A DNA stretch of 12,090 bases from a virus (taxonomy: Duplodnaviria; Heunggongvirae; Uroviricota; Caudoviricetes), in IMG/VR virus record IMGVR_UViG_2740892233_000019; one strand, given 5' to 3'. Below the pieces are notes generated by a model. It had not been told where the DNA came from. It did not search any database and was given only the letters and a program-made list of their open reading frames with translations. A program made the position numbers and the translations under genes. Shown one piece after another: positions 1 to 12,090 of the stretch; position 1 is the first letter of the stretch; each line of letters starts with the position of its first letter.

Positions 1-1485
1 TTGTTAACTGAACTTGCTGATAGATTTTTTGGTTCACGTTCTGATGACCGTAAAGAGCTTTTAGAACAAGTTAAGCGTGAAAAAGAGTTAAGAAAATCTG
101 CTCAACAACAAGCTCGAAAATCAACACAAAAAAGTTTTTCAGAAGCTTTGAAGAATCAGACACCAGTTCTTGATGCTTCCTTGGAGGCTGTTAAAAGGCT
201 GAAAACTAAGCTTGATAAAACTGATGGTTCGTTAGATTTAAACTATCTTAAAATTATAGACAGTGATCTTACAAACTTAGATGCGTTGCGCAGTGAAATT
301 AAAACGCCTATCAAACCTCCAAAACTTGGAATGTATGAAGAGAAATATAGAGACTACAGAGATAAATTTAATGAGTTCTCTGCGTATATTCTACAAATGA
401 AGTTAGCAATTAATAAACTTGATTCTGAATTAAATAAACTTGAGCCTTCATTGTCAGCGAAAAATCACCTTGAAAAAAATCAAGGTATTATTAATTCTAA
501 ACTAACTAAGTTTAATAACACGATAGAGGAGAAGATACATTCTCTTTTAAAAAAATGGGCCGATGAAATAAAGGTTGATCGAAGTGATTATTATGCTAAA
601 ACTATATCAGTTGTTGATTCAATAGATAATGATTCACAAATTGAAAATGTGTTTAATTTGCTCGATAGTTTATATGTTGAGTCAGTTGATACCCTAACTT
701 TCAAATATCAATCAATAATAAAAGGTCTCGATAGATTATTTGAAGGTATAAACTTAGATTCAGCATTCTCATTATCTGAAGAAGAACGCTCATATTTTGA
801 AGAAAAAGCTAAAAGTTTAAACGCGCTTGCACAGTTAGGTATTAGTGTTGAGATAATATCTCATGAACTTGAAGAAATGGATTCTATGGTAACCAGAGGA
901 CTAAACTCTCTTCCTACTTCTGTAAAAGAACACCCTGGTTTTTCATTGGCGTTAAATGCTCACAGATCGCTTACTCAACAAATACGTTTCTTATCACCTT
1001 TGAAAATATCAGGTTATCAATCCAGGCAGAGAATAACTGGAAAAAATATCATGGATTATGTCCTGAAGTTCTTTGGGGAGCGTTTCGAACGGCAACGAAT
1101 AACTATTGAATTTAGTGAAGAGTTTAAGCAAATCGCAATAACAGATATACCATTAAGGATCTATCCTGTTTTTACTAATATTATCAACAATGCAATGTAT
1201 TGGGTCAGTCTGTCAAATAATAGGCTCATAAAGATTGGTTTTGTGAATTCTTTGGTTATCATAGCAAATTCTGGTCCGGCAATTGATACCGATGATATCC
1301 CGCGACTATTTGAACTATTTTATAGCAAAAGAGCAAATGGACATGGGGTAGGTCTGTATCTATGTCGAGAAAACCTTGCTGTTGCACATCATAAAATATG
1401 GTATTCAGAACCTGATGAAGGCGATAACTATTTAATAAAAGATGGCGCTAATTTTGTGATCCAGTTCAATGGAGTGGAGTTCTAA
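1..1485 (+). CDS. Sensor histidine kinase, 5'-truncated at window edge (coiled-coil-rich N-terminal part, HisKA-like H-box, HATPase_c catalytic domain)
   Basis: Open frame from base 1 with no in-window start. H-box-like ISHELEE (His codon 862-864). N-box NIINNAMYW (about 1177-1203). G1-like NSGPAI, F-box FELFY, G2 box GHGVGL (1339-1356). Stop TAA at 1483-1485. Lys/Glu-rich, heptad-like upstream part. Confidence 0.75.
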   Translation: MLTELADRFFGSRSDDRKELLEQVKREKELRKSAQQQARKSTQKSFSEALKNQTPVLDASLEAVKRLKTKLDKTDGSLDLNYLKIIDSDLTNLDALRSEIKTPIKPPKLGMYEEKYRDYRDKFNEFSAYILQMKLAINKLDSELNKLEPSLSAKNHLEKNQGIINSKLTKFNNTIEEKIHSLLKKWADEIKVDRSDYYAKTISVVDSIDNDSQIENVFNLLDSLYVESVDTLTFKYQSIIKGLDRLFEGINLDSAFSLSEEERSYFEEKAKSLNALAQLGISVEIISHELEEMDSMVTRGLNSLPTSVKEHPGFSLALNAHRSLTQQIRFLSPLKISGYQSRQRITGKNIMDYVLKFFGERFERQRITIEFSEEFKQIAITDIPLRIYPVFTNIINNAMYWVSLSNNRLIKIGFVNSLVIIANSGPAIDTDDIPRLFELFYSKRANGHGVGLYLCRENLAVAHHKIWYSEPDEGDNYLIKDGANFVIQFNGVEF

Positions 1486-1486
1486 T

Positions 1487-3235
1487 ATGACAGTGGCAAA
1501 TTATAATTCTCTTGTCCAGAAAACTTTCTGCGAAAATGCAATTCGTTCCGTTGTCATGATTGATGACGATTTTCTGACGTATTCTGAATCAATCAGGGCG
1601 TTGAATAACGAAGTTGATTTAGACTACAACAAAATTGACTCATCTAAACGAGCCGCTACTCTTGAGAGCTTTTTTCAATCTAAAAATATGATTTGTGATG
1701 TTGACAATGGTTCTGTTAATTTCGATGTGGATCGGATTAGAAAATCAGATCTTATTATTGTAGATTATCATCTTGATAATAATGCACCTGATAAAACACT
1801 TAAACTATTACAAGATTTGAAAGACTCCGATCATTTAAATATGATTGTAATATATACTAGAGAGAATTTAGAAACGGTTTGGATGCAGATATCATCGACT
1901 CTCAAAGGTGCTCTGGATATCAACAGCTTGATCATTGACTACGATAATGAAGATGTCCAAAGTTATTGGGAAGACGTTGTATTACCGAACTTAAATGATA
2001 ATGGTAATAAAGCTCTCACAAGAGATGAAATAATAGCCTATATTAAAGACAGTAAGCCTTGTAGAAGAATTAAAAGATTAATAAATGATGATGCTGTGTT
2101 GGAGGATCAAAAGGATAAAAACTTCATTGCAAAAATGATTGCAGAATATGCTGTGTCTAGAAATGCAATTATTTCTAGCAACACATCTGGCAATGTCATT
2201 CGGGGTGATGAAAGCGGAGTAAAATGGATTCAATGTGGTAATATCTTTGTCTCCCTATTTCATAAGGTTCAAGATGATCATGAAAACGATGGAGATAGGA
2301 TTTGGCAAACTCTCAATGATTCTCTCATTGAATGGAAACCATCTTATTATCAGTTAATAAAATCTGAAATTCAGAATGCAATCGAAGCTGAGGCTTTATC
2401 TTTTGTAAATCATTTGGCTAACGATCATTACGGTCAAGCTGCGTGGTTAAATGAGATATTAAAATCAGACTCGCCTGATATTAGATGTAGAAATATTGAC
2501 TTTGTATTTGGTAATTTATCAGAAGAGCTTTATCAAAGACTTAAAAATAATAATACGCTGGATGAATTTATCAAAAGTGTTTTTGATAGCTATTCAAATG
2601 AATACGCTAACAGCGGAGTTGCTGCATTGCTCCAATATTGCTCTTCAAAAATGGATCTGCCATCAAATAATGATACTTATCACGAAATGTATCATGCTTT
2701 AAATATGAATTTGTCTTCAAAGAATTTTGAAGATGGTCATATTTCTACTGGCACTATTTTCTTTGATACAGAGTCGAACAAATGGTATTTATGTGTATCT
2801 GCGGCATGTGATTTGGTTCCTACTCAGGGTAACGACCCTCACCATGTAAGATTAAGTCCGCACAGGCTCATTAAAGTTCTGGAGCTTTTTAACGCCAGTC
2901 AGAGTAAAGCATTGCCATTTGCTGAACATTCGAAATATATATATGTAATGCATAAAAATCAAAGAAAATATCTCTCTATTTTCGAAGGGGATAAAACGCT
3001 TCCTGTTGTTGATTATATGGTGGTGTTGAATCATGGAACAACAGTTGATGGCGAAGAAAAAAATATTATTTCTGCCGTGTTTTTAAGTAATATGGATGGC
3101 AACGTGCAAAATGTTCCTGTCCGACTCAAACTTAAATCTCAACTGAGAACTGGTTATGCAGAAAGATATCAGGCTATAGCGTCTCAGTATAGCTCAAGGA
3201 TTGGTGTGGATTATGTATCAATGATGCTACCATAA
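1487..3235 (+). CDS. Receiver (REC) domain protein fused to a large uncharacterized C-terminal domain (about 430 aa); candidate effector/output partner of the upstream kinase
   Basis: ATG at 1487 preceded by GGAG (1476-1479) and placed 1 nt after the upstream stop (TAATATGA), supporting coupling; the ORF track's ATG at 1469 has no Shine-Dalgarno. REC hallmarks aligned by eye to CheY: VVMIDDDF acidic pair (DDD codons 1562-1570), LIIVDYHLDNNAPDK candidate phosphoacceptor Asp (1763-1765), MIVIYT conserved Thr. Remainder shows no motif I recognise. Confidence 0.65.
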   Translation: MTVANYNSLVQKTFCENAIRSVVMIDDDFLTYSESIRALNNEVDLDYNKIDSSKRAATLESFFQSKNMICDVDNGSVNFDVDRIRKSDLIIVDYHLDNNAPDKTLKLLQDLKDSDHLNMIVIYTRENLETVWMQISSTLKGALDINSLIIDYDNEDVQSYWEDVVLPNLNDNGNKALTRDEIIAYIKDSKPCRRIKRLINDDAVLEDQKDKNFIAKMIAEYAVSRNAIISSNTSGNVIRGDESGVKWIQCGNIFVSLFHKVQDDHENDGDRIWQTLNDSLIEWKPSYYQLIKSEIQNAIEAEALSFVNHLANDHYGQAAWLNEILKSDSPDIRCRNIDFVFGNLSEELYQRLKNNNTLDEFIKSVFDSYSNEYANSGVAALLQYCSSKMDLPSNNDTYHEMYHALNMNLSSKNFEDGHISTGTIFFDTESNKWYLCVSAACDLVPTQGNDPHHVRLSPHRLIKVLELFNASQSKALPFAEHSKYIYVMHKNQRKYLSIFEGDKTLPVVDYMVVLNHGTTVDGEEKNIISAVFLSNMDGNVQNVPVRLKLKSQLRTGYAERYQAIASQYSSRIGVDYVSMMLP

Positions 3236-3248
3236 TTATTATATTTTA

Positions 3249-3288
3249 GGCGTGGTGATTTTTTTTCGCCATGCCTATTTTATATTTA
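3249..3288 (+). terminator. Candidate intrinsic terminator for the kinase/REC operon
   Basis: Imperfect inverted repeat GGCGTGGTGA / TCGCCATGCC (10 bp with two G-U pairs) around a T-run loop, followed by U-rich tail TATTTTATATTT. Lies 14 nt after the 1487..3235 stop, between convergent genes. Confidence 0.4.
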
Positions 3289-3306
3289 TCATCACAATGA
3301 TGTTGT

Positions 3307-3723
3307 TTATTTTTGTTTAAGTCTTCTAAGCTTCATGCATTCTAATGAGAATAATAATAGAGTTGTGCTGTATATAAAGCCAGAGTTAGTTAATAACTTT
3401 AAATTTAATGCTTCAGGATTTTCACTGAGAAAGTGAAAGGCATAAACTAAGTATACAGCTAAAGTAGCCGTTCCAATTGTTGGTCCAATATCGCCTTGAT
3501 CATGAGGTTCAAGGTTTACATTGAACTTGAAGATTAGCCATTCAAATCCCCAAGTAAAAAAAACAACTAATATCATGGCTGCGAATAATTTCGCGATGTT
3601 ATCTGCTGATGGATTCATCAGAACAGATTGTTTCTGAAAAAATTCACAAAGTGAGAGTCCGAAAAAAATAAAAAAAAGTGGTCTGGAACTAAATTTTTCA
3701 AAAACTTTGAATAGGGTTTCCAT
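3307..3723 (-). CDS. Small integral membrane protein (about 4 predicted TM helices), unknown function
   Basis: 138-aa ORF with hydrophobic stretches LFFIFFGLSLCEFF, FAAMILVVFFTWGFEWLIF, TLAVYLVYAFHF, FIYSTTLLLFSL. GAAGG-like RBS upstream of ATG at 3723. Sits between integrase and the kinase/REC cassette. Confidence 0.5.
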   Translation of the reverse strand: METLFKVFEKFSSRPLFFIFFGLSLCEFFQKQSVLMNPSADNIAKLFAAMILVVFFTWGFEWLIFKFNVNLEPHDQGDIGPTIGTATLAVYLVYAFHFLSENPEALNLKLLTNSGFIYSTTLLLFSLECMKLRRLKQK

Positions 3724-3761
3724 TTTCTTTACCTTCAGGATTATATTAGCTATTCTGATAC

Positions 3762-4991
3762 TTAGGCTACCAGAGCATTTGATCTTTGAGCTTGAACGTA
3801 ATCACTCCACCATTGCATCAAACTCTGTCGCTCTATCAGATATTCTGCACGATTGTATGCTGCGATAATTTCATCTTTTTTCGAGTGGGCAAGCGCTGCC
3901 TCAAGAACTTCAGCTCTGAATTTACCAGACTCCTCTGCCGCTGTTCGTGCAATAGAACGCATACCGTGAGCTACAAGCTCGCCTCCGAACCCCATTCGGA
4001 TGATAGCTGCGTTGGCTGTTTGTTCATGCATATGATTAAGAGGCGCTTTTATGCTGGGGAAAACCCATTCTCTATGCCCACTTATTGATTTCATTAATTC
4101 AAGGATGCGCAAAGCTTCTTTACTCAAAGGAACTTTGTGAAGCTTTTTCATTTTCATGAAATCAGCAGGAATGTTCCAAATGCTGTTGGTTGTATCAATA
4201 TCAGACCACCTTGCGCGAACGGCTTCACCCGGACGAACCCATGTCAACAATTGCCATTCAATTAGCATACGTGTTTCCAACCGGATTGACGCATTCGTCA
4301 AAGATTCCATAAACCTTGGCAATTCGCTTGGGGGAAGGGCAGGCATATTTTGCTTTTTTGGTTTACTGAATCTTTGACCAAGGTTGTCAGCCGGGTTGAA
4401 CTCAATAAGTTCTTCAGTAGCTGCCCACCGGAAGATTTCATTCAGACGTGAAATGATACGGCGTAGAGTTTCCAATACGCCTCGTTGCTCAATAGGATCA
4501 AGGTGTTGTTTTAAGAGCTTAGGTCGGATCTCATTGATAGGGACATTACCCAGACCGGGAAAGACATTTCTCTCTAAGCTGCGCCAGATGTCTGCTGCAT
4601 GGTCTTGTGAGATACCTGATGTCTTTACCTTCTCATCTAACCATTTCCGCGCTACGGCTTGGAGAGTGTGCTCAGTAGCACTCTTTAATGCCTTCGCCTT
4701 ATCGTTGTTATGGATTTGGGGATCAACACCATTTGCCAGAAAGGAGAGATATTCATCACGTAAGGCTCTGGCTCTTGCAAGGGTAAGGTGAGGATATGTC
4801 CCAAGGCTCATTTTGGTTCTTTTCTTGCTCACGGGTACTGCATACCTGAAATACCAATTTTTCTTGCCTCCTTTCGCCAAAGGAGCGATTCGTAGAATCA
4901 GACCATCACCGTCAAACAAGTTGATTTCTTTATCGGCTGGCTTGGTGCTTTTGATTTCAGTGTCAGTGAGCTTCTTAGCGATTTTTGCCAT
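3762..4991 (-). CDS. int: Tyrosine recombinase / integrase, P4-type (IntA-like, the family associated with ssrA-integrated islands)
   Basis: N-terminus MAKIAKKLTDTEIKSTKP...DGDGLILRIAP...WYFRY matches the P4/IntA-type N-terminal signature as I recall it. Catalytic boxes: RPGEAVRARW (Arg), HGMRSIARTA (His-x-x-Arg), AYNRAEY (Tyr). Start at 4991 preferred over 5033 (better RBS GAGGG, matches family N-terminus). Confidence 0.9.
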   Translation of the reverse strand: MAKIAKKLTDTEIKSTKPADKEINLFDGDGLILRIAPLAKGGKKNWYFRYAVPVSKKRTKMSLGTYPHLTLARARALRDEYLSFLANGVDPQIHNNDKAKALKSATEHTLQAVARKWLDEKVKTSGISQDHAADIWRSLERNVFPGLGNVPINEIRPKLLKQHLDPIEQRGVLETLRRIISRLNEIFRWAATEELIEFNPADNLGQRFSKPKKQNMPALPPSELPRFMESLTNASIRLETRMLIEWQLLTWVRPGEAVRARWSDIDTTNSIWNIPADFMKMKKLHKVPLSKEALRILELMKSISGHREWVFPSIKAPLNHMHEQTANAAIIRMGFGGELVAHGMRSIARTAAEESGKFRAEVLEAALAHSKKDEIIAAYNRAEYLIERQSLMQWWSDYVQAQRSNALVA

Positions 4992-5155
4992 TTTGGGACC
5001 CTCGGTTTTTGGACCCTTCTTAGTGGGTCCCATTCAGGGTGCCATAACTCGTAGTTCTCAGCAATTCTCACTGGACGACAATAGACGTAAAAAAGCCCGC
5101 AGAGCTTGTGCTGTGTGGGCTTAGTAGACTTCATTGAACTTCAAACAACTAAAAA

Positions 5156-5180
5156 GTGGAGCTGGCGGGAGTTGAACCCG
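5156..5180 (-). other. Attachment-site core: 25-nt copy of the tmRNA (ssrA) 3' end (T-arm plus acceptor 3' strand), without the tmRNA body
   Basis: Minus-strand sequence CGGGTTCAACTCCCGCCAGCTCCAC matches the E. coli ssrA 3' terminus as I recall it. Sequence beyond 5180 diverges and no complementary acceptor 5' strand (GGGGCTG / GGAGCTG) is present, so this is neither a full tmRNA nor a tRNA. About 165 bp upstream of the integrase start. Confidence 0.7.
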
Positions 5181-5289
5181 TGCCCGAGCAATGCTTAACC
5201 CATTGAATAACAATGCATTCTCTGTTTAAAAATGCCTCAAGTGCATTTTGAGTGCATTTTCTGGTCCTCTCTTGGTCCATACAACGAGA

Positions 5290-6198
5290 TTAAGTGGCCA
5301 CTTGAAGTTCCGGCCCTGCGTCGCTATCTATTAACGGCTGACCTTGAACCATTTTTTCAACCATATCGTTTGAAGGATATGGAACCCCGAGCTCAACCGT
5401 ATTAGGGTTGGAACGGTGGGTTTCAACAAACGATGTTCCGTTCCATTTTTTTGAAAGGTAGATTATTCCTTCAAAGGCTGCAGGGTCCTGTTTCTGAGAC
5501 TCTAAGATCATGTGGAAGCCACGACGTTCTATCCCGCGTAAGAAGCTGGAGAAGCACTCCCTCAGTAATTCGTCATCCAAATCCTTGAACTTGATACCCT
5601 GCGCAAGAAACTCGAAATAATTAAGAATATATAAAAGGCCATTGATGGCATCCCTGTACTCATCGGGGACCTTCATATTCTTGTATTCTTCTTTGTCTGG
5701 GTTGCAGCGCCACTCTGATAGTTCTTGTGGTACATAACGCATGCCCCGATAGAATTTGGTGCTGTTCCGAAGCTGTTTTTGGTACTCCGGGCTTGTTCGG
5801 GTGTTAATGATCATGTTCAGCGTGTGGGACCTGCGCGTGTTAGCAGCGGACGTTATGCATTGTATCCACCATCCCATTCCAACGAGCATTCCTGTAACCA
5901 TGATCGAAAGCGATGTTTGATAGGCCGGTGTGTACCTTAAAATTGCATATCCAATAAGGATAATCACATAACAAACAGTGCTGAACATAGGAAGAAATTC
6001 TGCAGTGTCTGGATAGCGTTTTTTGATGAAGCAGAAGATAGAAGATATTGCTGCACCAGAACCAGCAATGACGATCAGCCAATCAATGATGGCGATGCTA
6101 AATGGTAGTTTTCCAGGGTAGATATAAGTAAAAAGTGCTCTGACAATCATCATTAGAGCAAAAATTGTAGCGCTGACGTTGACTAATGTTCTCGCCAT
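5290..6198 (-). CDS. Membrane-anchored protein (N-terminal multi-TM region, about 170-aa soluble C-terminal domain), unknown function
   Basis: ORF track gives 5290..6231; start at 6198 (MARTLVNV, AGGA about 10 nt upstream) preferred because 6231 sits inside a GC-rich stem-loop. Hydrophobic helices ATIFALMMIVRALF, IAIIDWLIVIAGSGAAISSIFCFI, VCYVIILIGYAIL, MVTGMLVGMGWWI, then a charged C-terminal half. Confidence 0.5.
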   Translation of the reverse strand: MARTLVNVSATIFALMMIVRALFTYIYPGKLPFSIAIIDWLIVIAGSGAAISSIFCFIKKRYPDTAEFLPMFSTVCYVIILIGYAILRYTPAYQTSLSIMVTGMLVGMGWWIQCITSAANTRRSHTLNMIINTRTSPEYQKQLRNSTKFYRGMRYVPQELSEWRCNPDKEEYKNMKVPDEYRDAINGLLYILNYFEFLAQGIKFKDLDDELLRECFSSFLRGIERRGFHMILESQKQDPAAFEGIIYLSKKWNGTSFVETHRSNPNTVELGVPYPSNDMVEKMVQGQPLIDSDAGPELQVAT

Positions 6199-6210
6199 CT
6201 TATTGATTCC

Positions 6211-6239
6211 TATAACAAAAGACCTCCGCATGGGAGGCC
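6211..6239 (-). promoter_or_regulatory. GC-rich stem-loop followed by T-tract on the minus strand (terminator- or attenuator-like) immediately upstream of the 5290..6198 start
   Basis: Minus-strand GCCTCC-CATGC-GGAGGT hairpin followed by CTTTTGTT. Lies about 440 nt downstream of the lambdoid integrase stop and just upstream of the next ORF. Confidence 0.3.
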
Positions 6240-6680
6240 TTATTGTGCTAATGGAGGTTTGTTTTAAAATTTTAGGTTGTAGTTAACCTTCACCGAAACC
6301 TACGGTCAGTGTCTTTTTCATAGTGTTCACTCCAGTTGTGGTGCTTCGCCGATACCTACGTTAAGCTCTTGAAAAGTAAAAAAACATAAAAGTTTTAGAA
6401 TTTGTGGAGCACAGGATAACAGTTTGTACTGGGACTCATCAAGTACTATCAGTGTCCTTGCACTGTCCTAGTGAAAATTTATTGCAATAAAGTAACTTAC
6501 GTGAAGTCAAGAAATATATTTGCACTCCATTTCTTGCTATGATGTAAGTTATTGATTTTAATTAAATTTACAATTACCTAAATGAACTATGGAAACTATC
6601 AATAACATAGATGATAGCTCATTTCACAAAAAGCAATGGTAGACTCATTCTTAATTTTCATCAGCCTTAAGCCTATGTAC

Positions 6681-7856
6681 TCAGCTTGACACAACATTTA
6701 TAGACGTTTTACCATCGTATTCAGCCAGGTATTTACCGTAATTGCGGAACAGCATTTCCGGCCCCTTATGCCCCATCTGCCCGGCAAGCCAGAAAAGGTT
6801 TACACCCTGGCTAATGTGTCTGGTGGCGAATGTGTGGCGCGTCTGGTACGGGTTACGGTAGCGCACACCAGCTTTTTTCAGGGTCGGCACCCATGCTTTT
6901 TTACGGATAGCGTCGGCGTTCGTCCAGGGTTCTCCCGTTTTCGGATCGCTGAATATGAACTCACTTTTCATAAAGGTGTATTGCTTCTGCGCCTGCAGGG
7001 CTGCCAGCGCCTCACTGTTCAGCTCCACCTTACGGGTACCGGCTTTTGTCTTGGTGCCTTTAAGTACCCCTACGACACTGGCCGCCTGAACGTGGGCTGT
7101 GTTCGCGATGGTGTCGAGATCAGCCCAGCGCAGCGCGCACAGTTCTGAGCTCCGCAGACCTGTATTGAAAGCAAAGCGGAACAGGTTTTCCCATTCCCTG
7201 TACCTGCAGCTCTGGTAAATGGCAAGGGTCTCCGCTGGCGTGAACGGGTCAACCTCGTAATCGTCGGCGCTCGGGCTACTGTCGATCACGTGGTACCGGC
7301 TGGCGCTGACGAGGGTTACCGGGTTAATGGTCAGCAGGCCATCCGTAACAGCTTCATCAATGGCGCTGCGCAGAAATGACAGGTTATTCCTGATTGTTTT
7401 CAGCTTAGTTTTTCGGCTGGCTATCCAATTTTTTAGTATCGCAGGCGTCAATTCTGTTACATGTAGTTTATGTAGTTCTGATAGTGCTGATAGACATTTT
7501 TCGTAACCGCCAATGGTTGACGGCGACAGATTACGGTTTATGCAAATTTTCAGGTATTCATCAAGATAGGACTTAATATTTTTGGTTTTCTTTACTACAC
7601 CGAATAACTCCAGTTTTTTGGAATTGGGGAAATATTTCGCATATTCAAACGTTCCGCTGGCGATCTGATTTTGTATCTCCCCTAGCAGGCGCTCAGCATA
7701 TTTTATACCACGTGTATTTGCCTCAAGCCGAGATAGGGGCTCCCTGCAAAGAACCCCTTTATATGTGAAAGTGATAACTAGTGTTGAAGCAGTTTTATGC
7801 TTACGAATAGTTACTCCTCTTGGCAGAGATAATAATCCTTGTTCTTTCTTGCCCAT
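6681..7856 (-). CDS. int: Phage integrase (tyrosine recombinase) of the lambdoid prophage
   Basis: C-terminal catalytic boxes: GLRSSELCALRWADLD (Arg), TRHTFATRH (box II, LRHxFAT-like), LFRNYGKYL (Tyr). Start at MGKKEQ (7856) preferred over 7883. The excisionase ORF overlaps its 5' end, as is typical for int-xis pairs. Confidence 0.85.
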   Translation of the reverse strand: MGKKEQGLLSLPRGVTIRKHKTASTLVITFTYKGVLCREPLSRLEANTRGIKYAERLLGEIQNQIASGTFEYAKYFPNSKKLELFGVVKKTKNIKSYLDEYLKICINRNLSPSTIGGYEKCLSALSELHKLHVTELTPAILKNWIASRKTKLKTIRNNLSFLRSAIDEAVTDGLLTINPVTLVSASRYHVIDSSPSADDYEVDPFTPAETLAIYQSCRYREWENLFRFAFNTGLRSSELCALRWADLDTIANTAHVQAASVVGVLKGTKTKAGTRKVELNSEALAALQAQKQYTFMKSEFIFSDPKTGEPWTNADAIRKKAWVPTLKKAGVRYRNPYQTRHTFATRHISQGVNLFWLAGQMGHKGPEMLFRNYGKYLAEYDGKTSINVVSS

Positions 7857-8020
7857 TTTGAAACCTCTATTAAGTCGACCCAACGCTCTTTAACCCCGTC
7901 GACTTTTAATACATGTACCCCTTCTTTCCATATTCCTCTTTGTATCCGTTTGTTAACGGCATCAACCGTTTCTCCCGCGTTGCGGCAGTAGGTTGATATA
8001 GGTACGCAATCCAGCCCCAC
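7811..8020 (-). CDS. xis: Excisionase-like small DNA-binding protein (Xis)
   Basis: 69-aa basic ORF immediately upstream of and overlapping int. GTG start at 8020 with GAGGTGA Shine-Dalgarno 5 nt upstream. Sequence pattern resembles the excisionase-like family by eye; no strong motif check is possible. Confidence 0.55.
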   Translation of the reverse strand: MGLDCVPISTYCRNAGETVDAVNKRIQRGIWKEGVHVLKVDGVKERWVDLIEVSKWARKNKDYYLCQEE

Positions 8021-8178
8021 AGTTCACCTCACACAACATTCAGCCCACGACAGTGACACCACACTTCAAACATTCGTTTCACAATTTCACGACAGTAGAA
8101 ACCGTCAACATCTCGCGTCAGGTCATAGCGATTGCCGAATGTCTTGCGAACCCATAACTCAAAAACCGTATGCATGTA

Positions 8179-8421
8179 TCACCTCCGTTGCATTGCGCGC
8201 AATTTTTTCAGGTGCTTTTCCTGCTCAGTGTCCGCCAGGATTTTGCAATACTGCTGGTGGTCAATATGTTCGAACAGGCAGTTGAACTCACCAATGCATA
8301 CCCGCCCGGAGTGTCCGTCCATACGTCGAAAGAACACAGAGCGGTCCGTACAGCGAGTAATCACCACAGGGTATCCGGCCCTGTCCGTGTATATTTGCCC
8401 GCGTTGAATAAGTGCGAACAT
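8179..8421 (-). CDS. Phage early-region hypothetical protein (80 aa)
   Basis: ORF in the minus-strand operon; GGGGA RBS before ATG at 8421; only 4 nt from the stop of the upstream 27-aa ORF. The opposite-strand ORFs at 8132..8407 and 8170..8454 are judged spurious. Confidence 0.5.
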   Translation of the reverse strand: MFALIQRGQIYTDRAGYPVVITRCTDRSVFFRRMDGHSGRVCIGEFNCLFEHIDHQQYCKILADTEQEKHLKKLRAMQRR

Positions 8422-8425
8422 GAGA

Positions 8426-8509
8426 TTATCCCCAGCGGCAAATCGAAAAAATAATCAGCGCAATCGATATTGCAACACCTACAATTGCAAATGCTTCAGG
8501 CCAACTCAT
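8426..8509 (-). CDS. Small hydrophobic peptide (27 aa, single predicted TM helix), absent from the ORF track
   Basis: Hand translation of the minus strand gives MSWPEAFAIVGVAISIALIIFSICRWG, stop TAA. Its ATG (8509..8507) overlaps the TGA stop of the DUF551 gene as ATGA, indicating translational coupling. Confidence 0.35.
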   Translation of the reverse strand: MSWPEAFAIVGVAISIALIIFSICRWG

Positions 8510-9369
8510 TGACTCACCTCCTGCGGCGGTTCTGGTAGAGGCATCCAGTGGGTTACATCGCATTCAGGGATGCTGATATCATCACCAAGCCACCCTTGAC
8601 CTTCAGACCAGCATTGCACGTAATACCCGTATTCTGTGTTCACTACGCACCACTGTGCGTCGTTCGGCATTAGCTCACTACAGCTTATCCAACCATCCGG
8701 AGTTACCGGAACTTGCGGAATGGCTGTCTGCTCTCGAACGTCATTAGGCGCTATAGGTTCTGCTGCCAACTGACTGGCATATTTGTTAATGGTAACGATA
8801 AGCTCTTGCTCAGCCTCATCCAGATAATCACCGATACCTCGCCTGTCACCGTCAAAATCATCGAAATCGGCACGAATCTTGGCAACCTTCTGGATTGCGG
8901 ACAACACCTCACTAGGAATTACCGGATAGTTGGTTGACGTTTCCGCGATTTCCCGAAAATTATTGGTTGACGAATTCTTATTTTCCCGAAAGTTTCTGGC
9001 CTGAAGCATGGCGGCGCGGCAGGCATTCCAGCCAGTAGCGTAATATTTCGCATCCTGCCAGCTCGTTTGTACATTTGAGTACGCTTTTTCCTCTGTCATG
9101 GCCTCTGGTATTGATGCCGGTGCAATTCGTGGCAGGCCGATATATAGTGGTACATCTCCCGGCTCCATCGAATTGACGGGCCAAATATACGCATCACTAC
9201 CATGGTTAATGAGCGCAATCCCCGAAGTATCGATGATGCCAAATGGCTCCGCTGTCAATGCAGTCAATGCAATTTCATAAGCCCGACGCTCAATATTGTC
9301 TCGCACGTCCAGGCTGCTTATGCGCTCTTTGATTTCTTTAATCAGTTTCTTATCGGTGAAAGTGGTCAT
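8506..9369 (-). CDS. Phage protein with C-terminal DUF551-like domain (Ea22-like early-left region protein)
   Basis: 287-aa ORF ending in the Cys/Trp-rich motif CSELMPNDAQWCVV...HWMPLPEPP, which I recognise as the DUF551 signature of lambdoid prophage early proteins. One nt separates it from the upstream gene. Confidence 0.65.
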   Translation of the reverse strand: MTTFTDKKLIKEIKERISSLDVRDNIERRAYEIALTALTAEPFGIIDTSGIALINHGSDAYIWPVNSMEPGDVPLYIGLPRIAPASIPEAMTEEKAYSNVQTSWQDAKYYATGWNACRAAMLQARNFRENKNSSTNNFREIAETSTNYPVIPSEVLSAIQKVAKIRADFDDFDGDRRGIGDYLDEAEQELIVTINKYASQLAAEPIAPNDVREQTAIPQVPVTPDGWISCSELMPNDAQWCVVNTEYGYYVQCWSEGQGWLGDDISIPECDVTHWMPLPEPPQEVSQ

Positions 9370-9370
9370 C

Positions 9371-9700
9371 TCACTCTCCTTTGATGCGAATGCCAGCGAC
9401 GCGTAGTGCGTGTTCTAAGTCAATCAGGCAAAGCCAGCTGCCATTTTCTTTAGGTATCATGACATGTCGCTTATCAGCATTTATTGGGTGCCCATATCGA
9501 AGGTCGTAGCGAGTCGGTAATTGAACTTCCCTCGCTTCCAGTTCTGTAATGCGTTTGTTTTTAGCTTCTAGTTCATCCAGCAGCACCAGCACAACCTGCG
9601 GTGTGACTTTCATACGAAACGCAAGCAATTTTTGCGGCGTTGCCACGACTTTTATTGCTTCTGCCGCCTCACGCAGTGCCTGATAGTCAATCTTGCTCAC
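9371..9700 (-). CDS. Ead/Ea22-like family small phage protein
   Basis: N-terminus MSKIDYQALREAAEAIK resembles the QALREAAE-type start of Ead/Ea22-like prophage proteins as I recall them. ATGA overlap with the upstream gene. Confidence 0.55.
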   Translation of the reverse strand: MSKIDYQALREAAEAIKVVATPQKLLAFRMKVTPQVVLVLLDELEAKNKRITELEAREVQLPTRYDLRYGHPINADKRHVMIPKENGSWLCLIDLEHALRVAGIRIKGE

Positions 9701-9936
9701 TGGTTGCCTCCTTTACGGATCTGCGCTGCGATGCGCGAAAAAAAAGCCTCCCGCGTATGGCTGTTAAGAGCTGGCGCGAACGCCGCGTTAAGAACGGCAG
9801 CATCACAGCCGTCATCGATATAGAGCGCAATTTTTTTCTCCAGGCGCGCTTTGGCTTCCTGCAACTGCATACCCCGGCACGCACGCGGGATATAATCAGC
9901 AATTTGAGCGATAGCTTTTTCGTTCTGTTTAAACAT
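9697..9936 (-). CDS. Phage early-region hypothetical protein (79 aa)
   Basis: Protein-like composition; overlaps neighbours by 4 and 8 nt in operon fashion. Preferred over the overlapping Arg-rich 9687..10049 frame. Confidence 0.5.
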   Translation of the reverse strand: MFKQNEKAIAQIADYIPRACRGMQLQEAKARLEKKIALYIDDGCDAAVLNAAFAPALNSHTREAFFSRIAAQIRKGGNQ

Positions 9937-10132
9937 GCTTCACCTCGATAGGCTTGATGGTGTCTAACAGCAGTCGGCGGCGCGTATTTTCTGCAAAATG
10001 GCGGCGTCCAGTTTCTTTGTGGTAAAACTCGTTTTTGCCAACGACCCACATCCGCTCTGTTTGGTGCAATTTTTTTACCTGCGGGCCATCTTTGGTGATC
10101 ACGGTACCGGTATGGGTTTTTACGATTGTCAT
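9929..10132 (-). CDS. Phage early-region hypothetical protein (67 aa)
   Basis: Small basic ORF coupled by a 4-nt overlap to the PAPS-reductase-like gene upstream and an 8-nt overlap downstream. Confidence 0.5.
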   Translation of the reverse strand: MTIVKTHTGTVITKDGPQVKKLHQTERMWVVGKNEFYHKETGRRHFAENTRRRLLLDTIKPIEVKHV

Positions 10133-11007
10133 GCCACGACCTCTTCGAATTTCAACTCCAATTGGTCACCCCAGATTTCACATGATTCGGAACACGAACC
10201 AGTATCAAACCGCTTGGCCAGCACCATCGCCTGATACAAACTTCTGTAGTCGCTGTCGGCATACATTCTGGCAATCCCGTCAAGCGTCAGGTGACCACGG
10301 TACATAACGTCTTTACCTGTTCTGCGATGACCATCCCTGACGTGTTTGCCTGTAACCAGTTCATTAAAAACCCGCATCAGACCAGGTTCGTCTTTACATG
10401 CAAGCCCCAGCTTTTGCGTTGACTTTTTGATGCAAAAAACACAGTTCCCGAGGTGCTCCGGGATTTGCAAATCAAAAGGTTGTTTTTGCCACCACCGGAT
10501 AACATCCGACTTATCAAAATCTGACAGCTCGGCAAGATACCGGACGCCAGGTTTCGGTTTCAGCCTACGGGGTTCGTCCGCACGAATACCGAGCCATGTG
10601 ATGTAATTCCCTCGCCCAAAATGGTCATCGCAATATTTCGTGAAAGGGGTGAGTTTTAGCCTGTCAGTACAGAATGCGCCGCCGATGTATGGCGTACCGT
10701 ACTTTTTAACCATGTCCATAAACGGTTTAAGCACCGGCATTCGCGTCTGAATATCCTTTGGTTCCCATTCCGTATAACCATTTGGCTGCCCAAGCTCTGG
10801 ATTTATATCGACCTGCAACACAGTTAGCGGTATGCCCCAGAACTTCAAAACCTCCCGAATAAAGCGGTATGTCAGCGGATGTTCGCAACCGGTATCCATA
10901 AAGATGTAGCAGACGTTATTGCCAGCCTTTCTTTGTTCTTCCATCAGGTGAACAAGATATGCAGATGTTCTCCCGCCAGAAAAACTAACTACATGAGTTA
11001 TGCACAT
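10129..11007 (-). CDS. Phosphoadenosine-phosphosulfate (PAPS) reductase-like PP-loop protein, phage type
   Basis: N-terminal PP-loop motif SFSGGRTS (SGGxDS-type). C-terminal cysteine pairs CVFC and CSESC. This family is commonly found in lambdoid prophage early-left regions. Confidence 0.8.
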   Translation of the reverse strand: MCITHVVSFSGGRTSAYLVHLMEEQRKAGNNVCYIFMDTGCEHPLTYRFIREVLKFWGIPLTVLQVDINPELGQPNGYTEWEPKDIQTRMPVLKPFMDMVKKYGTPYIGGAFCTDRLKLTPFTKYCDDHFGRGNYITWLGIRADEPRRLKPKPGVRYLAELSDFDKSDVIRWWQKQPFDLQIPEHLGNCVFCIKKSTQKLGLACKDEPGLMRVFNELVTGKHVRDGHRRTGKDVMYRGHLTLDGIARMYADSDYRSLYQAMVLAKRFDTGSCSESCEIWGDQLELKFEEVVA

Positions 11008-11303
11008 TTGCGTAATTCCGATAACTCGTTGAAGCGTTCCATAAACATCCCGTAGGCATGGCCCGGTGCCAGTGGAATCACTTTGAACATCTCTGTTGCC
11101 GGGATACCTTCCAATACAGGCCAGAAAGAGCCATCATCAAGTCCGAGATCGCGGCGTTCGGTTGCCAGCATGATGAGATCGGCATATTTCACTGGCGTGC
11201 TCATAACAGGAGGTAACCCGTATTTCTCACGGATTACGGCGTCTATTTTTTCTTCCATCCGTTTATAGTCAGGAAGAAGTCGTTTCAGTGGCGCGGGGAT
11301 GTC
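10998..11303 (-). CDS. Phage hypothetical protein, 5'-truncated by the N-gap
   Basis: Open frame runs into the N-run; the clean part encodes DIPAPLKRLLPDYKRMEEKIDAVIREKYG...ELRKCA. Overlaps the start of the PAPS-reductase-like gene by 10 nt. Confidence 0.45.
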   Translation of the reverse strand, partial: DIPAPLKRLLPDYKRMEEKIDAVIREKYGLPPVMSTPVKYADLIMLATERRDLGLDDGSFWPVLEGIPATEMFKVIPLAPGHAYGMFMERFNELSELRKCA

Positions 11304-11304
11304 C

Positions 11305-11314
11305 NNNNNNNNNN
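11305..11314. other. Run of 10 N: assembly or scaffold gap
   Basis: Ten consecutive n characters. Reading frames on both sides are interrupted and flanking composition and gene content differ. Confidence 0.95.
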
Positions 11315-11316
11315 AC

Positions 11317-12090
11317 TTTACTGATGGAACAACAAACCAGTTGAACATCAGCAACTCCCTGATTCATGGTTCAATCACTTCAATGCTGCCTATGGGTGAA
11401 AGCAGTGATGGTCATTATGTCTATCAGTTCTCTGAATACGGTACTGATCGTGTAATTGATGATAATTGGCATGATGGTGATGTATTCACTTTAAATATTG
11501 CTAATTCTACAATTGATGACGATTATGAAGGTTTATACTTCACTGATTCATATCTGGACGGTGACGTTACCAAATATACTAACGAAACCTTCCATACCCC
11601 AGCTGGTGAAGGTGAAGAATACGCCGGTTTGTTTGCAAACGGTGGTGTTGGCCTTGGGCTGGCAGTGAATCTTGATGTCGAAAGTAACATCAATATTTCT
11701 AACAACTCCCGCGTTGCTGGTATCAGCCTGACTCAGGGTAATACCGTAAACAATACTTACACTACTGAATCTCATACTTGGGATAACAATATCTCAGTTA
11801 CCGATTCCACAGTGACTTCAGGTTCTGTAACTACTCTGGAAGACAGTGGTTTCTATGGTAACTCTGCGGAACCTAGTGATTACTCTGGTAACGGCGAAGC
11901 TAATGATGTAGCTCTGTATTTCAGTGATAGTGCGGCTTCAAATTACTCCATGAAAAACAATGTTTATTTCAGCAATTCTACTCTGCTGGGTGATGTTGTT
12001 TTCGCAAGTACTTTCAACGCAAACTTCTATCCTCAAGGTCATGACAGTAATGCCGATGGCGTACTTGGACACCAATGGTGGCTGGGCTGA
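11317..12090 (+). CDS. Asn/Ser/Thr/Gly/Asp-rich repeat protein fragment, 5'-partial (adhesin or autotransporter passenger-like)
   Basis: Frame open from the gap to TGA at 12088-12090. Composition and short repeats (NISNSLIHGS, NIANSTIDDD, NINISNNSRVAGISL, NNISVTDSTVTSGSV) are typical of beta-helical adhesin passenger domains. The ATG at 11299 is chance, lying before the gap. Confidence 0.4.
   Translation, partial: FTDGTTNQLNISNSLIHGSITSMLPMGESSDGHYVYQFSEYGTDRVIDDNWHDGDVFTLNIANSTIDDDYEGLYFTDSYLDGDVTKYTNETFHTPAGEGEEYAGLFANGGVGLGLAVNLDVESNINISNNSRVAGISLTQGNTVNNTYTTESHTWDNNISVTDSTVTSGSVTTLEDSGFYGNSAEPSDYSGNGEANDVALYFSDSAASNYSMKNNVYFSNSTLLGDVVFASTFNANFYPQGHDSNADGVLGHQWWLG

What the first reader, a model, noticed from the sequence alone, without database searches (positions are those of the whole stretch)
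5156..5180. tmRNA 3'-end copy without a tmRNA gene: att core in a tandem or composite integration hotspot
The 25-nt minus-strand segment matches the ssrA T-arm and acceptor end and lies about 165 bp upstream of the IntA-like integrase, as expected for an attP/attL core. The tmRNA body that should adjoin it is absent; other accessory DNA lies on that side instead. This fits a displaced att fragment between two tandemly integrated elements, or an element captured away from intact ssrA. It marks the right-hand boundary of the island that carries the kinase/REC cassette.
Basis: partly seen in the sequence, partly recalled or inferred. Interest (0 to 1): 0.6.

Follow-up and report, generated by a model that had tools for sequence, protein, structure and literature searches.

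The report
Displaced tmRNA-gene end marking prophage junction
The 25-base copy of the tmRNA gene's end is real: it is the ordinary scar (attR) left when a 54-kb prophage inserted into the tmRNA gene ssrA of E. coli O26:H11, pushing the gene's old 3' end and an older small island away from the gene.

Summary
Window 5156-5180 (minus strand) is 25/25 identical to nt 337-361 of the host ssrA. No match occurred in 200 shuffles. No tmRNA gene adjoins it.

The window is 100% identical to E. coli O26:H11 str. 11368. There the intact ssrA lies 54.2 kb away in the same orientation, and a lambdoid prophage carrying espK/espN/nleL fills the gap.

All four att sites were recovered:
- attB: strain H19, which has the same island directly after an intact ssrA and no prophage.
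- attP: free phage LMessi, where both flanks are contiguous right after an integrase 91% identical to the prophage's.
- attL: ssrA plus the prophage in strain 11368.
- attR: this fragment.

Their common core is exactly these 25 nt. Paired AAAATGCAC repeats in both arms look like arm-type integrase sites.

The fragment is also the only surviving att of the older IntA-like island (integrase, hypothetical gene, receiver-domain gene, kinase). That island has no distal repeat and ends in IS3 and a truncated ygaQ.

This is the textbook displaced tDNA fragment that the Islander resource catalogues. It is ordinary and already known in kind.

Side notes:
- Empty-site strains carry an ssrA without an encoded CCA end.
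- The window contains a 10-N scaffold join.

The parts
5156..5180 (-). 25-nt common core of the att sites. It is identical to ssrA nt 337-361 (T-arm 3' part, acceptor 3' strand, discriminator A, first C of CCA). It is the attR core of the ssrA prophage and the attL core of the IntA-like island.
   Evidence: It is the only block shared by attB, attP, attL and attR.
5181..5289 (-). Phage-derived P arm of attR. It begins with the A at 5181 that distinguishes phage attP (CACGGG) from host ssrA (CGCGGG). Homology to the phage LMessi attP starts about 18 nt after the DUF4760 stop codon.
5241..5260 (-). Two AAAATGCAC repeats 11 bp apart. They are candidate arm-type binding sites for the prophage integrase. 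A matching pair lies 90-110 bp downstream of the intact ssrA in the other arm.
   Evidence: only 4 copies in about 98 kb, all at the two prophage ends and in the same orientation. The pairs are partly conserved in the LMessi attP. Their role as binding sites is inferred.
5087..5155 (-). Island-derived flank between the core and the integrase gene. It contains an intrinsic-terminator hairpin (about 5122-5093) followed by a T-run. The same flank lies directly after the intact ssrA in about 1000 E. coli genomes. It is homologous to the hairpin after ssrA in K-12 CP4-57 and to the 3' end of Salmonella IsrM.
3762..4991 (-). IntA-like (P4-type) tyrosine integrase of the small island. It is 48% identical to K-12 IntA. 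The protein, WP_001341819.1, is identical in the strains where the island abuts the intact ssrA.
3307..3723 (-). Hypothetical 138-aa island gene (WP_000448925.1).
1..3235 (+). Island cargo. The HEF_HK/HATPase_c kinase gene is cut at the window start and ends at 1485. The gene with the Response_reg_2 receiver domain spans 1487-3235.
   Evidence: There was no confident PADLOC match.
5290..6198 (-). DUF4760 gene. It is prophage cargo inserted between the integrase gene and attP. Phage LMessi lacks it there: its attP follows the integrase directly.
6681..7856 (-). Tyrosine integrase of the lambdoid prophage, with an Arm-DNA-bind_2 domain. It is 91% identical to the phage LMessi integrase.
7857..11304 (-). 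Early-left region of the same lambdoid prophage (DUF4222, DUF551, Ead/Ea22-like, PAPS-reductase-like and yfdR genes). The contig ends at 11304.

Best explanation
The 25-nt segment is the displaced original 3' end of the tmRNA gene ssrA.

An older small island sat directly after ssrA. It carries a P4/IntA-type integrase, a hypothetical gene, a receiver-domain gene and a kinase gene. A lambdoid prophage of about 54.2 kb, carrying the effector genes espK, espN and nleL, then integrated into ssrA. Integration was by tyrosine-integrase recombination between its attP and the 3' end of ssrA.

The phage attP carries its own copy of the ssrA 3' end. The gene was therefore regenerated at the far end of the prophage (attL). 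The host's old 3' end, together with the island behind it, was moved to the integrase-proximal end (attR). That is the fragment in the window.

The fragment makes no RNA product of its own. It is a recombination site. Together with attL it is the substrate for prophage excision. It is also the only att remnant of the older island, which has lost its distal repeat and is probably fixed in place.

Shown here: the sequence identity, the orientation, the four att sites and the empty site.

Inferred: that strand exchange occurs at the T-loop (CGGG-TTCAACT-CCCG), that the AAAATGCAC pairs are arm-type integrase sites, and that the prophage can still excise.
For: 1. The match is 25/25 to the host ssrA, and shuffles gave 0 matches.
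2. The window is 100% identical to O26:H11 str. 11368. The intact ssrA is at 3604541-3604903 and the fragment at 3659116-3659140, on the same strand. A complete lambdoid prophage lies between them, running from the integrase through the regulatory and lysis genes, terminase, capsid and tail genes to the effector cargo.
3. A predicted attP, made by joining the window flank to the flank after ssrA, matches phage LMessi in one piece. The match covers 92% of the query at 88% identity. It starts 42 nt after an integrase 91% identical to the prophage's.
4. The four-way alignment shows the classic exchange. The attB left side equals the attL left side. The attP left side closely matches the attR left side. 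The attP right side nearly equals the attL right side, apart from one C/T difference. The attB right side equals the attR right side. The only block shared by all four is the 25 nt. The A at 5181 is the phage allele.
5. Strain H19 has the intact ssrA followed by the same island, with all four proteins identical and the same IS3 pseudogene, and no prophage. B1_2 and AR_0019 are similar.
6. 78 genomes carry the prophage-island junction. About 1000 carry the island flank beside the intact ssrA.
7. AAAATGCAC pairs occur only at the two prophage ends.
8. The principle of a regenerated target plus a displaced fragment, and of tandem arrays, is established in PMC4383910.
Against: - No experiment here shows integration or excision.
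- LMessi is a relative, not the same phage. Its attP is 88% identical and it lacks the DUF4760 gene between the integrase and attP.
- The fragment and the empty sites in this lineage read CCAC|TTTTT. Most E. coli read CCACCAC|TTTTT. The history of this 3-nt difference is not resolved.
- The IntA-like island has no distal core copy. The arrangement therefore fails the strict definition of a tandem array, in which each element has its own tDNA fragment.
Confidence: 0.95

Rival explanations
1. The order of events was the reverse. The prophage integrated into ssrA first, and the IntA-like island later integrated into the displaced fragment at the prophage's attR.
For: The final structure is formally compatible, because an integrase needs only the short attB core. 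Prophage excision afterwards would also yield the H19-type site.
Against: The island flank lies directly after the intact ssrA in about 1000 genomes of varied backgrounds. The prophage junction occurs in only 78. The island looks old and decayed: it has no distal repeat, it abuts IS3, and ygaQ is truncated. H19 carries the island with identical proteins and no prophage.
Confidence: 0.03
2. The fragment is what remains of a second, duplicated tmRNA gene whose body was deleted, not an att site.
For: Rfam aligns the tmRNA 3' end with weak 5' matches.
Against: The Rfam score is 13.9 bits against a gathering score of 47. The sequence upstream of the core aligns with the P arm of a phage attP, not with ssrA. 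The breakpoints are exactly those of site-specific recombination.
Confidence: 0.01
3. The element was captured away from ssrA: the IntA-like island, with its att core, was moved to an unrelated locus by rearrangement.
For: No ssrA is visible in the window, and the contig ends inside the prophage at 11304.
Against: In the complete genomes that match the window at 100%, the island sits in the normal ssrA-glaH interval, next to ygaQ', glaH and the gab genes. The intact ssrA, preceded by smpB, lies at the other end of the prophage.
Confidence: 0.01

Closest known systems
Displaced tDNA fragments and tandem island arrays at tRNA and tmRNA genes (Islander/TIGER; Hudson, Lau and Williams 2015, PMC4383910)
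   Same: A tyrosine integrase splits the target gene and the element regenerates it. A directly oriented 3' fragment marks the other end of the element. The tmRNA gene is the most enriched integration target, and arrays occur at a single tDNA.
   Different: Only the prophage has both ends. The second element, the IntA-like island, has an integrase but no tDNA fragment of its own, so it would not count as a full array member under Islander's rule.
E. coli K-12 cryptic prophage CP4-57 (ssrA-intA ... psaA)
   Same: It uses the same target (the ssrA 3' end) and a related integrase (48% identity). Its integrase gene lies about 200 bp after ssrA, behind a homologous terminator hairpin. K-12 annotates the displaced ssrA fragment as the pseudogene psaA.
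   Different: CP4-57 retains its distal repeat (psaA) and 22 kb of cargo. The island here is 5.4 kb with different cargo (kinase and receiver-domain genes) and no distal repeat.
ssrA-integrating lambdoid phages of E. coli (for example CP-1639, the PhiR12 series, phi467 and LMessi in GenBank; Stx phages at ssrA in O111, PMC2323221)
   Same: They share the same attP core and arms. The integrases are closely related (91% to LMessi). The prophages carry effector or toxin cargo.
   Different: This prophage carries a DUF4760 gene between the integrase and attP, and espK/espN/nleL at the far end. LMessi is a smaller phage of 37 kb.
Phage lambda attP architecture (core plus arm-type Int sites)
   Same: The integrase has an arm-binding domain. 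Its gene is adjacent to attP. Short repeats lie in both arms 60-110 bp from the core.
   Different: The core lies inside an RNA gene, not in an intergenic attB. Integrase binding to the repeats has not been tested.

Membership tests
Displaced tDNA fragment / att site of a tyrosine-integrase element | Sequence identical to the 3' end of an intact tRNA or tmRNA gene in the same replicon | tested here: met
   25/25 identical to ssrA nt 337-361 of NC_013361.1. Shuffles gave 0 matches.
Displaced tDNA fragment / att site of a tyrosine-integrase element | Fragment in the same orientation as the intact gene, at an element-sized distance | tested here: met
   Both lie on the + strand of the record, 54.2 kb apart.
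Displaced tDNA fragment / att site of a tyrosine-integrase element | Integrase gene inside the interval | tested here: met
   Tyrosine integrase at window 6681-7856 (minus) with an Arm-DNA-bind_2 domain.
Displaced tDNA fragment / att site of a tyrosine-integrase element | The two element ends join into an attP that restores the gene's 3' end | tested here: met
   The predicted attP is contiguous in phage LMessi, next to a 91%-identical integrase.
Displaced tDNA fragment / att site of a tyrosine-integrase element | An unoccupied attB exists in a related genome | tested here: met
   Strain H19 has ssrA followed by the same island and IS3 pseudogene, with no prophage. B1_2 and AR_0019 are similar.
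Displaced tDNA fragment / att site of a tyrosine-integrase element | Integrase-dependent integration and excision at this site | not testable with these tools
   This needs induction and junction PCR, or recombination assays.
Tandem array in the strict sense (each member has its own integrase and its own tDNA fragment) | The second element (IntA-like island) is bounded by its own distal tDNA fragment | tested here: not met
   No further core copy lies between the kinase gene and glaH, even with 3 mismatches allowed in a 15-mer. No direct repeat of the ssrA end was found either. The island ends at IS3 and a truncated ygaQ.
tmRNA gene (Rfam RF00023) | Full-length match at or above the gathering score, or detection by ARAGORN | tested here: not met
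   13.9 bits against 47, with only the 3' end aligned. ARAGORN found 0 genes.
IsrM sRNA (Rfam RF02763) | Match at or above the gathering score covering the RNA body | tested here: not met
   51.5 bits against 376. Only about 19 nt at the 5' end and about 57 nt at the 3' end align, and 253 model positions are absent.

The most novel reading that the evidence does not exclude
In the O26:H11 lineage the host ssrA allele has no encoded CCA end. It reads ...GCTCCAC|TTTTT, as seen in the fragment and in 11 prophage-free genomes. The prophage's attP supplies a 3' end with a full CCACCA. Prophage integration would then repair or improve the tmRNA gene, and its excision would return the cell to a tmRNA that depends on 3' trimming and the CCA-adding enzyme. 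That would be a fitness link between carrying the prophage and trans-translation.
Probability: 0.15. Interest if true: 0.35.

Novelty: already known. Interest (0 to 1): 0.12.

Why it matters
The practical value is for annotation. The fragment fixes the exact boundary between an effector-carrying prophage (espK, espN, nleL) and an older island in an enterohaemorrhagic E. coli lineage. It also gives exact attL and attR sequences for typing strains for presence or absence of the prophage. It adds no new biology, because this is how tDNA-targeting integrative elements are known to behave.

Tried and rejected
- Island distal end. I looked for a distal att repeat of the IntA-like island with direct-repeat search and a 15-mer allowing 3 mismatches, in L004 and L001. 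The one extra 15-mer hit (L001 33193-33207, 3 mismatches) lies inside the prophage, not beyond the island, and matches at that stringency are expected by chance. The remaining short direct repeats look like chance.
- Cargo function. PADLOC scans of the kinase, the receiver protein, the hypothetical protein and DUF4760 gave only marginal hits (E = 0.003-0.007). I rejected these as uninformative.
- A real tmRNA or IsrM gene. Both Rfam hits are far below the gathering scores, so I rejected this.
- Structure of the fragment region. The fold is no more stable than shuffled sequence (z = -0.63). Only the T-arm and terminator hairpins stand out.
- Literature. Williams 2003, 'Traffic at the tmRNA gene', could not be retrieved. 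I cite that title only from my own knowledge. The IsrM papers do not mention ssrA or an integrase.
- History of the 3-nt CCA difference. I could not decide whether it predates prophage integration or arose in the fragment and was returned to ssrA by excision. Both fit a crossover upstream of it.

Full report
**Observation**

On the minus strand, window 5180..5156 reads CGGGTTCAACTCCCGCCAGCTCCAC. It is the only match in the window even with three mismatches allowed. None of 200 dinucleotide-preserving shuffles produced one.

ARAGORN finds no tRNA or tmRNA gene in the window. Rfam's tmRNA model aligns only its last ~30 positions, at 5201..5154, scoring 13.9 bits against a gathering score of 47.

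**Where the window comes from**

Window 1-11304 is 100% identical to the chromosome of E. coli O26:H11 str. 11368 (NC_013361.1 3652992-3664295, reverse strand) and to dozens of related genomes. I used that closed genome to see beyond the window.

Its intact ssrA lies at 3604541-3604903, just after smpB. The fragment corresponds to 3659116-3659140 on the same strand, 54.2 kb downstream. The 25 nt equal ssrA nt 337-361 of 363. These bases are the 3' half of the T-stem, the T-loop, the 3' acceptor strand, the discriminator A and the first C of CCA.

**What lies between ssrA and the fragment**

The interval is one lambdoid prophage. Reading from ssrA it contains:
- a DinI-like pseudogene and the effector genes espK, espN and nleL;
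- tail fibre, J and tape-measure genes;
- capsid, portal and terminase genes;
- lysis genes, an antiterminator and a tRNA cluster;
- replication and regulatory genes, and the early-left genes.

It ends with the integrase (window 6681-7856, minus) and a DUF4760 gene (5290-6198, minus).

**What lies after the fragment**

Next comes a terminator hairpin, about 5122-5093 plus a T-run. Then comes a P4/IntA-type integrase at 4991-3762. It has Arm-DNA-bind_3, Phage_int_M and Phage_integrase domains and is 48% identical to K-12 IntA. After it lie a 138-aa hypothetical gene, a Response_reg_2 receiver protein and a HEF_HK/HATPase_c kinase.

Outside the window follow an IS3 pseudogene, a 5'-truncated ygaQ-like pseudogene and glaH. 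The core ends 165 nt before the annotated integrase start. That start aligns with Met1 of IntA.

**The four att sites**

- **attB.** Strain H19 has smpB-ssrA followed directly by the same island. The integrase, hypothetical protein, receiver protein and kinase have identical protein accessions, and the IS3 pseudogene is the same. There is no prophage. Strains B1_2 and AR_0019 show the same arrangement.
- **attP.** I joined the sequence upstream of the fragment (window minus strand 5300..5156) to the sequence downstream of the intact ssrA. I then searched the phage collection with it. Phage LMessi (PP925823, a 37-kb complete genome) matches in one piece, over 92% of the query at 88% identity. 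The match begins 42 nt after the stop codon of an integrase. That integrase is 91% identical to the prophage's.
- **attL and attR.** In the four-way alignment the left sides of attB and attL are identical, being the ssrA body. The left sides of attP and attR are homologous, being the phage P arm. Both carry the diagnostic A in CACGGG where ssrA has CGCGGG. The right sides of attP and attL are near-identical (the phage P' arm, CACTTTTGATAGG..., with one C/T difference further on). The right sides of attB and attR are identical (the island flank, TTTTTAGTTGTTTGAAG...).

The only block common to all four is the 25 nt of the finding. This is the signature of conservative site-specific recombination. 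It rules out chance, a decayed second tmRNA gene, and capture at a foreign locus.

**Further anatomy**

The 9-mer AAAATGCAC occurs four times in the ~98 kb examined, as two pairs with 11-bp spacing. One pair lies 61-104 bp upstream of the fragment core (window 5241-5260). The other lies 90-110 bp downstream of the intact ssrA. Both have the same orientation relative to ssrA, and both are largely conserved in the LMessi attP.

The prophage integrase has an arm-binding domain. I therefore infer that these repeats are arm-type integrase sites. This is an inference, not a demonstration.

The T-arm provides an inverted repeat, CGGG/CCCG, around the 7-nt TTCAACT. From established knowledge of tDNA-targeting integrases, this is the likely site of core binding and strand exchange. 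That too is inferred.

**Order of events and population view**

The prophage-island junction is present in 78 of 5426 complete E. coli genomes. The island flank lies beside the intact ssrA in roughly a thousand. The island has no distal copy of the core and abuts IS3 and a truncated gene.

The most economical history is that the island came first, is old and is now fixed. The prophage integrated later into ssrA and is polymorphic within the O26 group. The reverse order is formally possible but poorly supported.

**Comparison with what is known**

This is the standard behaviour of elements that target tRNA and tmRNA genes. [quoted passage not shown] That paper resolves tandem arrays at one tDNA and notes that the tmRNA gene is the most enriched target (PMC4383910).

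E. coli K-12 already annotates the equivalent fragment of CP4-57 as the pseudogene psaA. ssrA is a reported integration site for phages in enterohaemorrhagic E. coli (PMC2323221; PMC8112680).

By Islander's strict rule the locus is a prophage next to a degenerate island, not a two-member array. The island lacks its own fragment.

**Verdict**

The feature is ordinary and already known in kind. Interest is low.

**Things seen in passing**

1. **CCA-less ssrA.** The fragment and the O26-lineage empty sites read ...GCTCCAC|TTTTT. Most E. coli with this island read ...GCTCCACCAC|TTTTT. Eleven complete genomes have an otherwise intact ssrA without an encoded CCA. RefSeq still annotates 363 nt, so the annotated gene ends in TT. 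In prophage carriers, the phage arm supplies the full CCA.
2. **IsrM hit.** The Rfam IsrM hit (5163..5089, E = 5.5e-12 but 51.5 bits against 376) covers only the two ends of the model. Salmonella isrM lies immediately upstream of STM2763, in the same orientation (PMC2330248). From my own knowledge, STM2763 is annotated as a putative integrase. If so, the hit reflects homology of the spacer between att and the integrase gene, including its terminator, and not an sRNA gene here.
3. **Scaffold join.** Window 11305-11314 is a run of ten N. The sequence after it is 100% identical to an autotransporter gene located more than 3 Mb away in closed O26 genomes. The window therefore spans a scaffold join in a draft assembly. 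The ORF listed at 11299-12090 is an artefact at its 5' end.
4. **Cargo genes.** The kinase and receiver pair have no confident match in PADLOC.

Noticed in passing
window 5154-5160 (minus); L007 9040-9060; L004 12025-12045: The displaced fragment and the prophage-free ssrA of the O26 lineage read ...GCTCCAC|TTTTT. They lack the encoded CCA end that most E. coli carry (...CCACCAC|TTTTT). Eleven complete genomes, including strain H19, have this CCA-less but otherwise intact ssrA. RefSeq still annotates 363 nt, so the annotated gene ends in TT. The prophage's attP arm supplies a full CCA.
   Followed up: partly
window 5089-5163 (minus): Rfam IsrM (RF02763) matches only at its two ends (E = 5.5e-12, 51.5 bits against a gathering score of 376), and 253 model positions are missing. 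In Salmonella, isrM lies just upstream of STM2763. The hit therefore looks like homology of the spacer and terminator between an ssrA att core and an IntA-type integrase gene. The 5' end of IsrM may itself start in a degenerate ssrA fragment.
   Followed up: partly
window 11305-11314 and 11315-12090: There is a run of ten N. The sequence after it is 100% identical to an autotransporter beta-barrel gene located more than 3 Mb away in closed O26 genomes. The window spans a scaffold join of a draft assembly, and the ORF listed at 11299-12090 crosses the gap.
   Followed up: yes
window 1-3235 (+): The island cargo is an unusual pair: a HEF_HK/HATPase_c kinase and a 582-aa protein with a Response_reg_2 receiver domain (Pfam PF19191 and PF19192). 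It has no confident PADLOC match. It is conserved next to ssrA in about 1000 E. coli genomes. Its function was not examined.
   Followed up: partly
window 5290-6198 (minus): A DUF4760 gene sits between the prophage integrase and attP. Phage LMessi lacks it there, so it looks like a moron (an extra cargo gene) inserted at the int-attP junction.
   Followed up: partly
window 5241-5260 (minus); L002 19994-20013 (+): Paired AAAATGCAC repeats 11 bp apart lie in both prophage arms. They are the only four copies in about 98 kb and are candidate arm-type integrase sites.
   Followed up: partly
window 8506-9369 (minus): The mechanical ORF list shows a single 287-aa DUF551 ORF here. RefSeq for strain 11368 annotates the same stretch as one short DUF551 gene plus two partial pseudogenes.
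   Followed up: no
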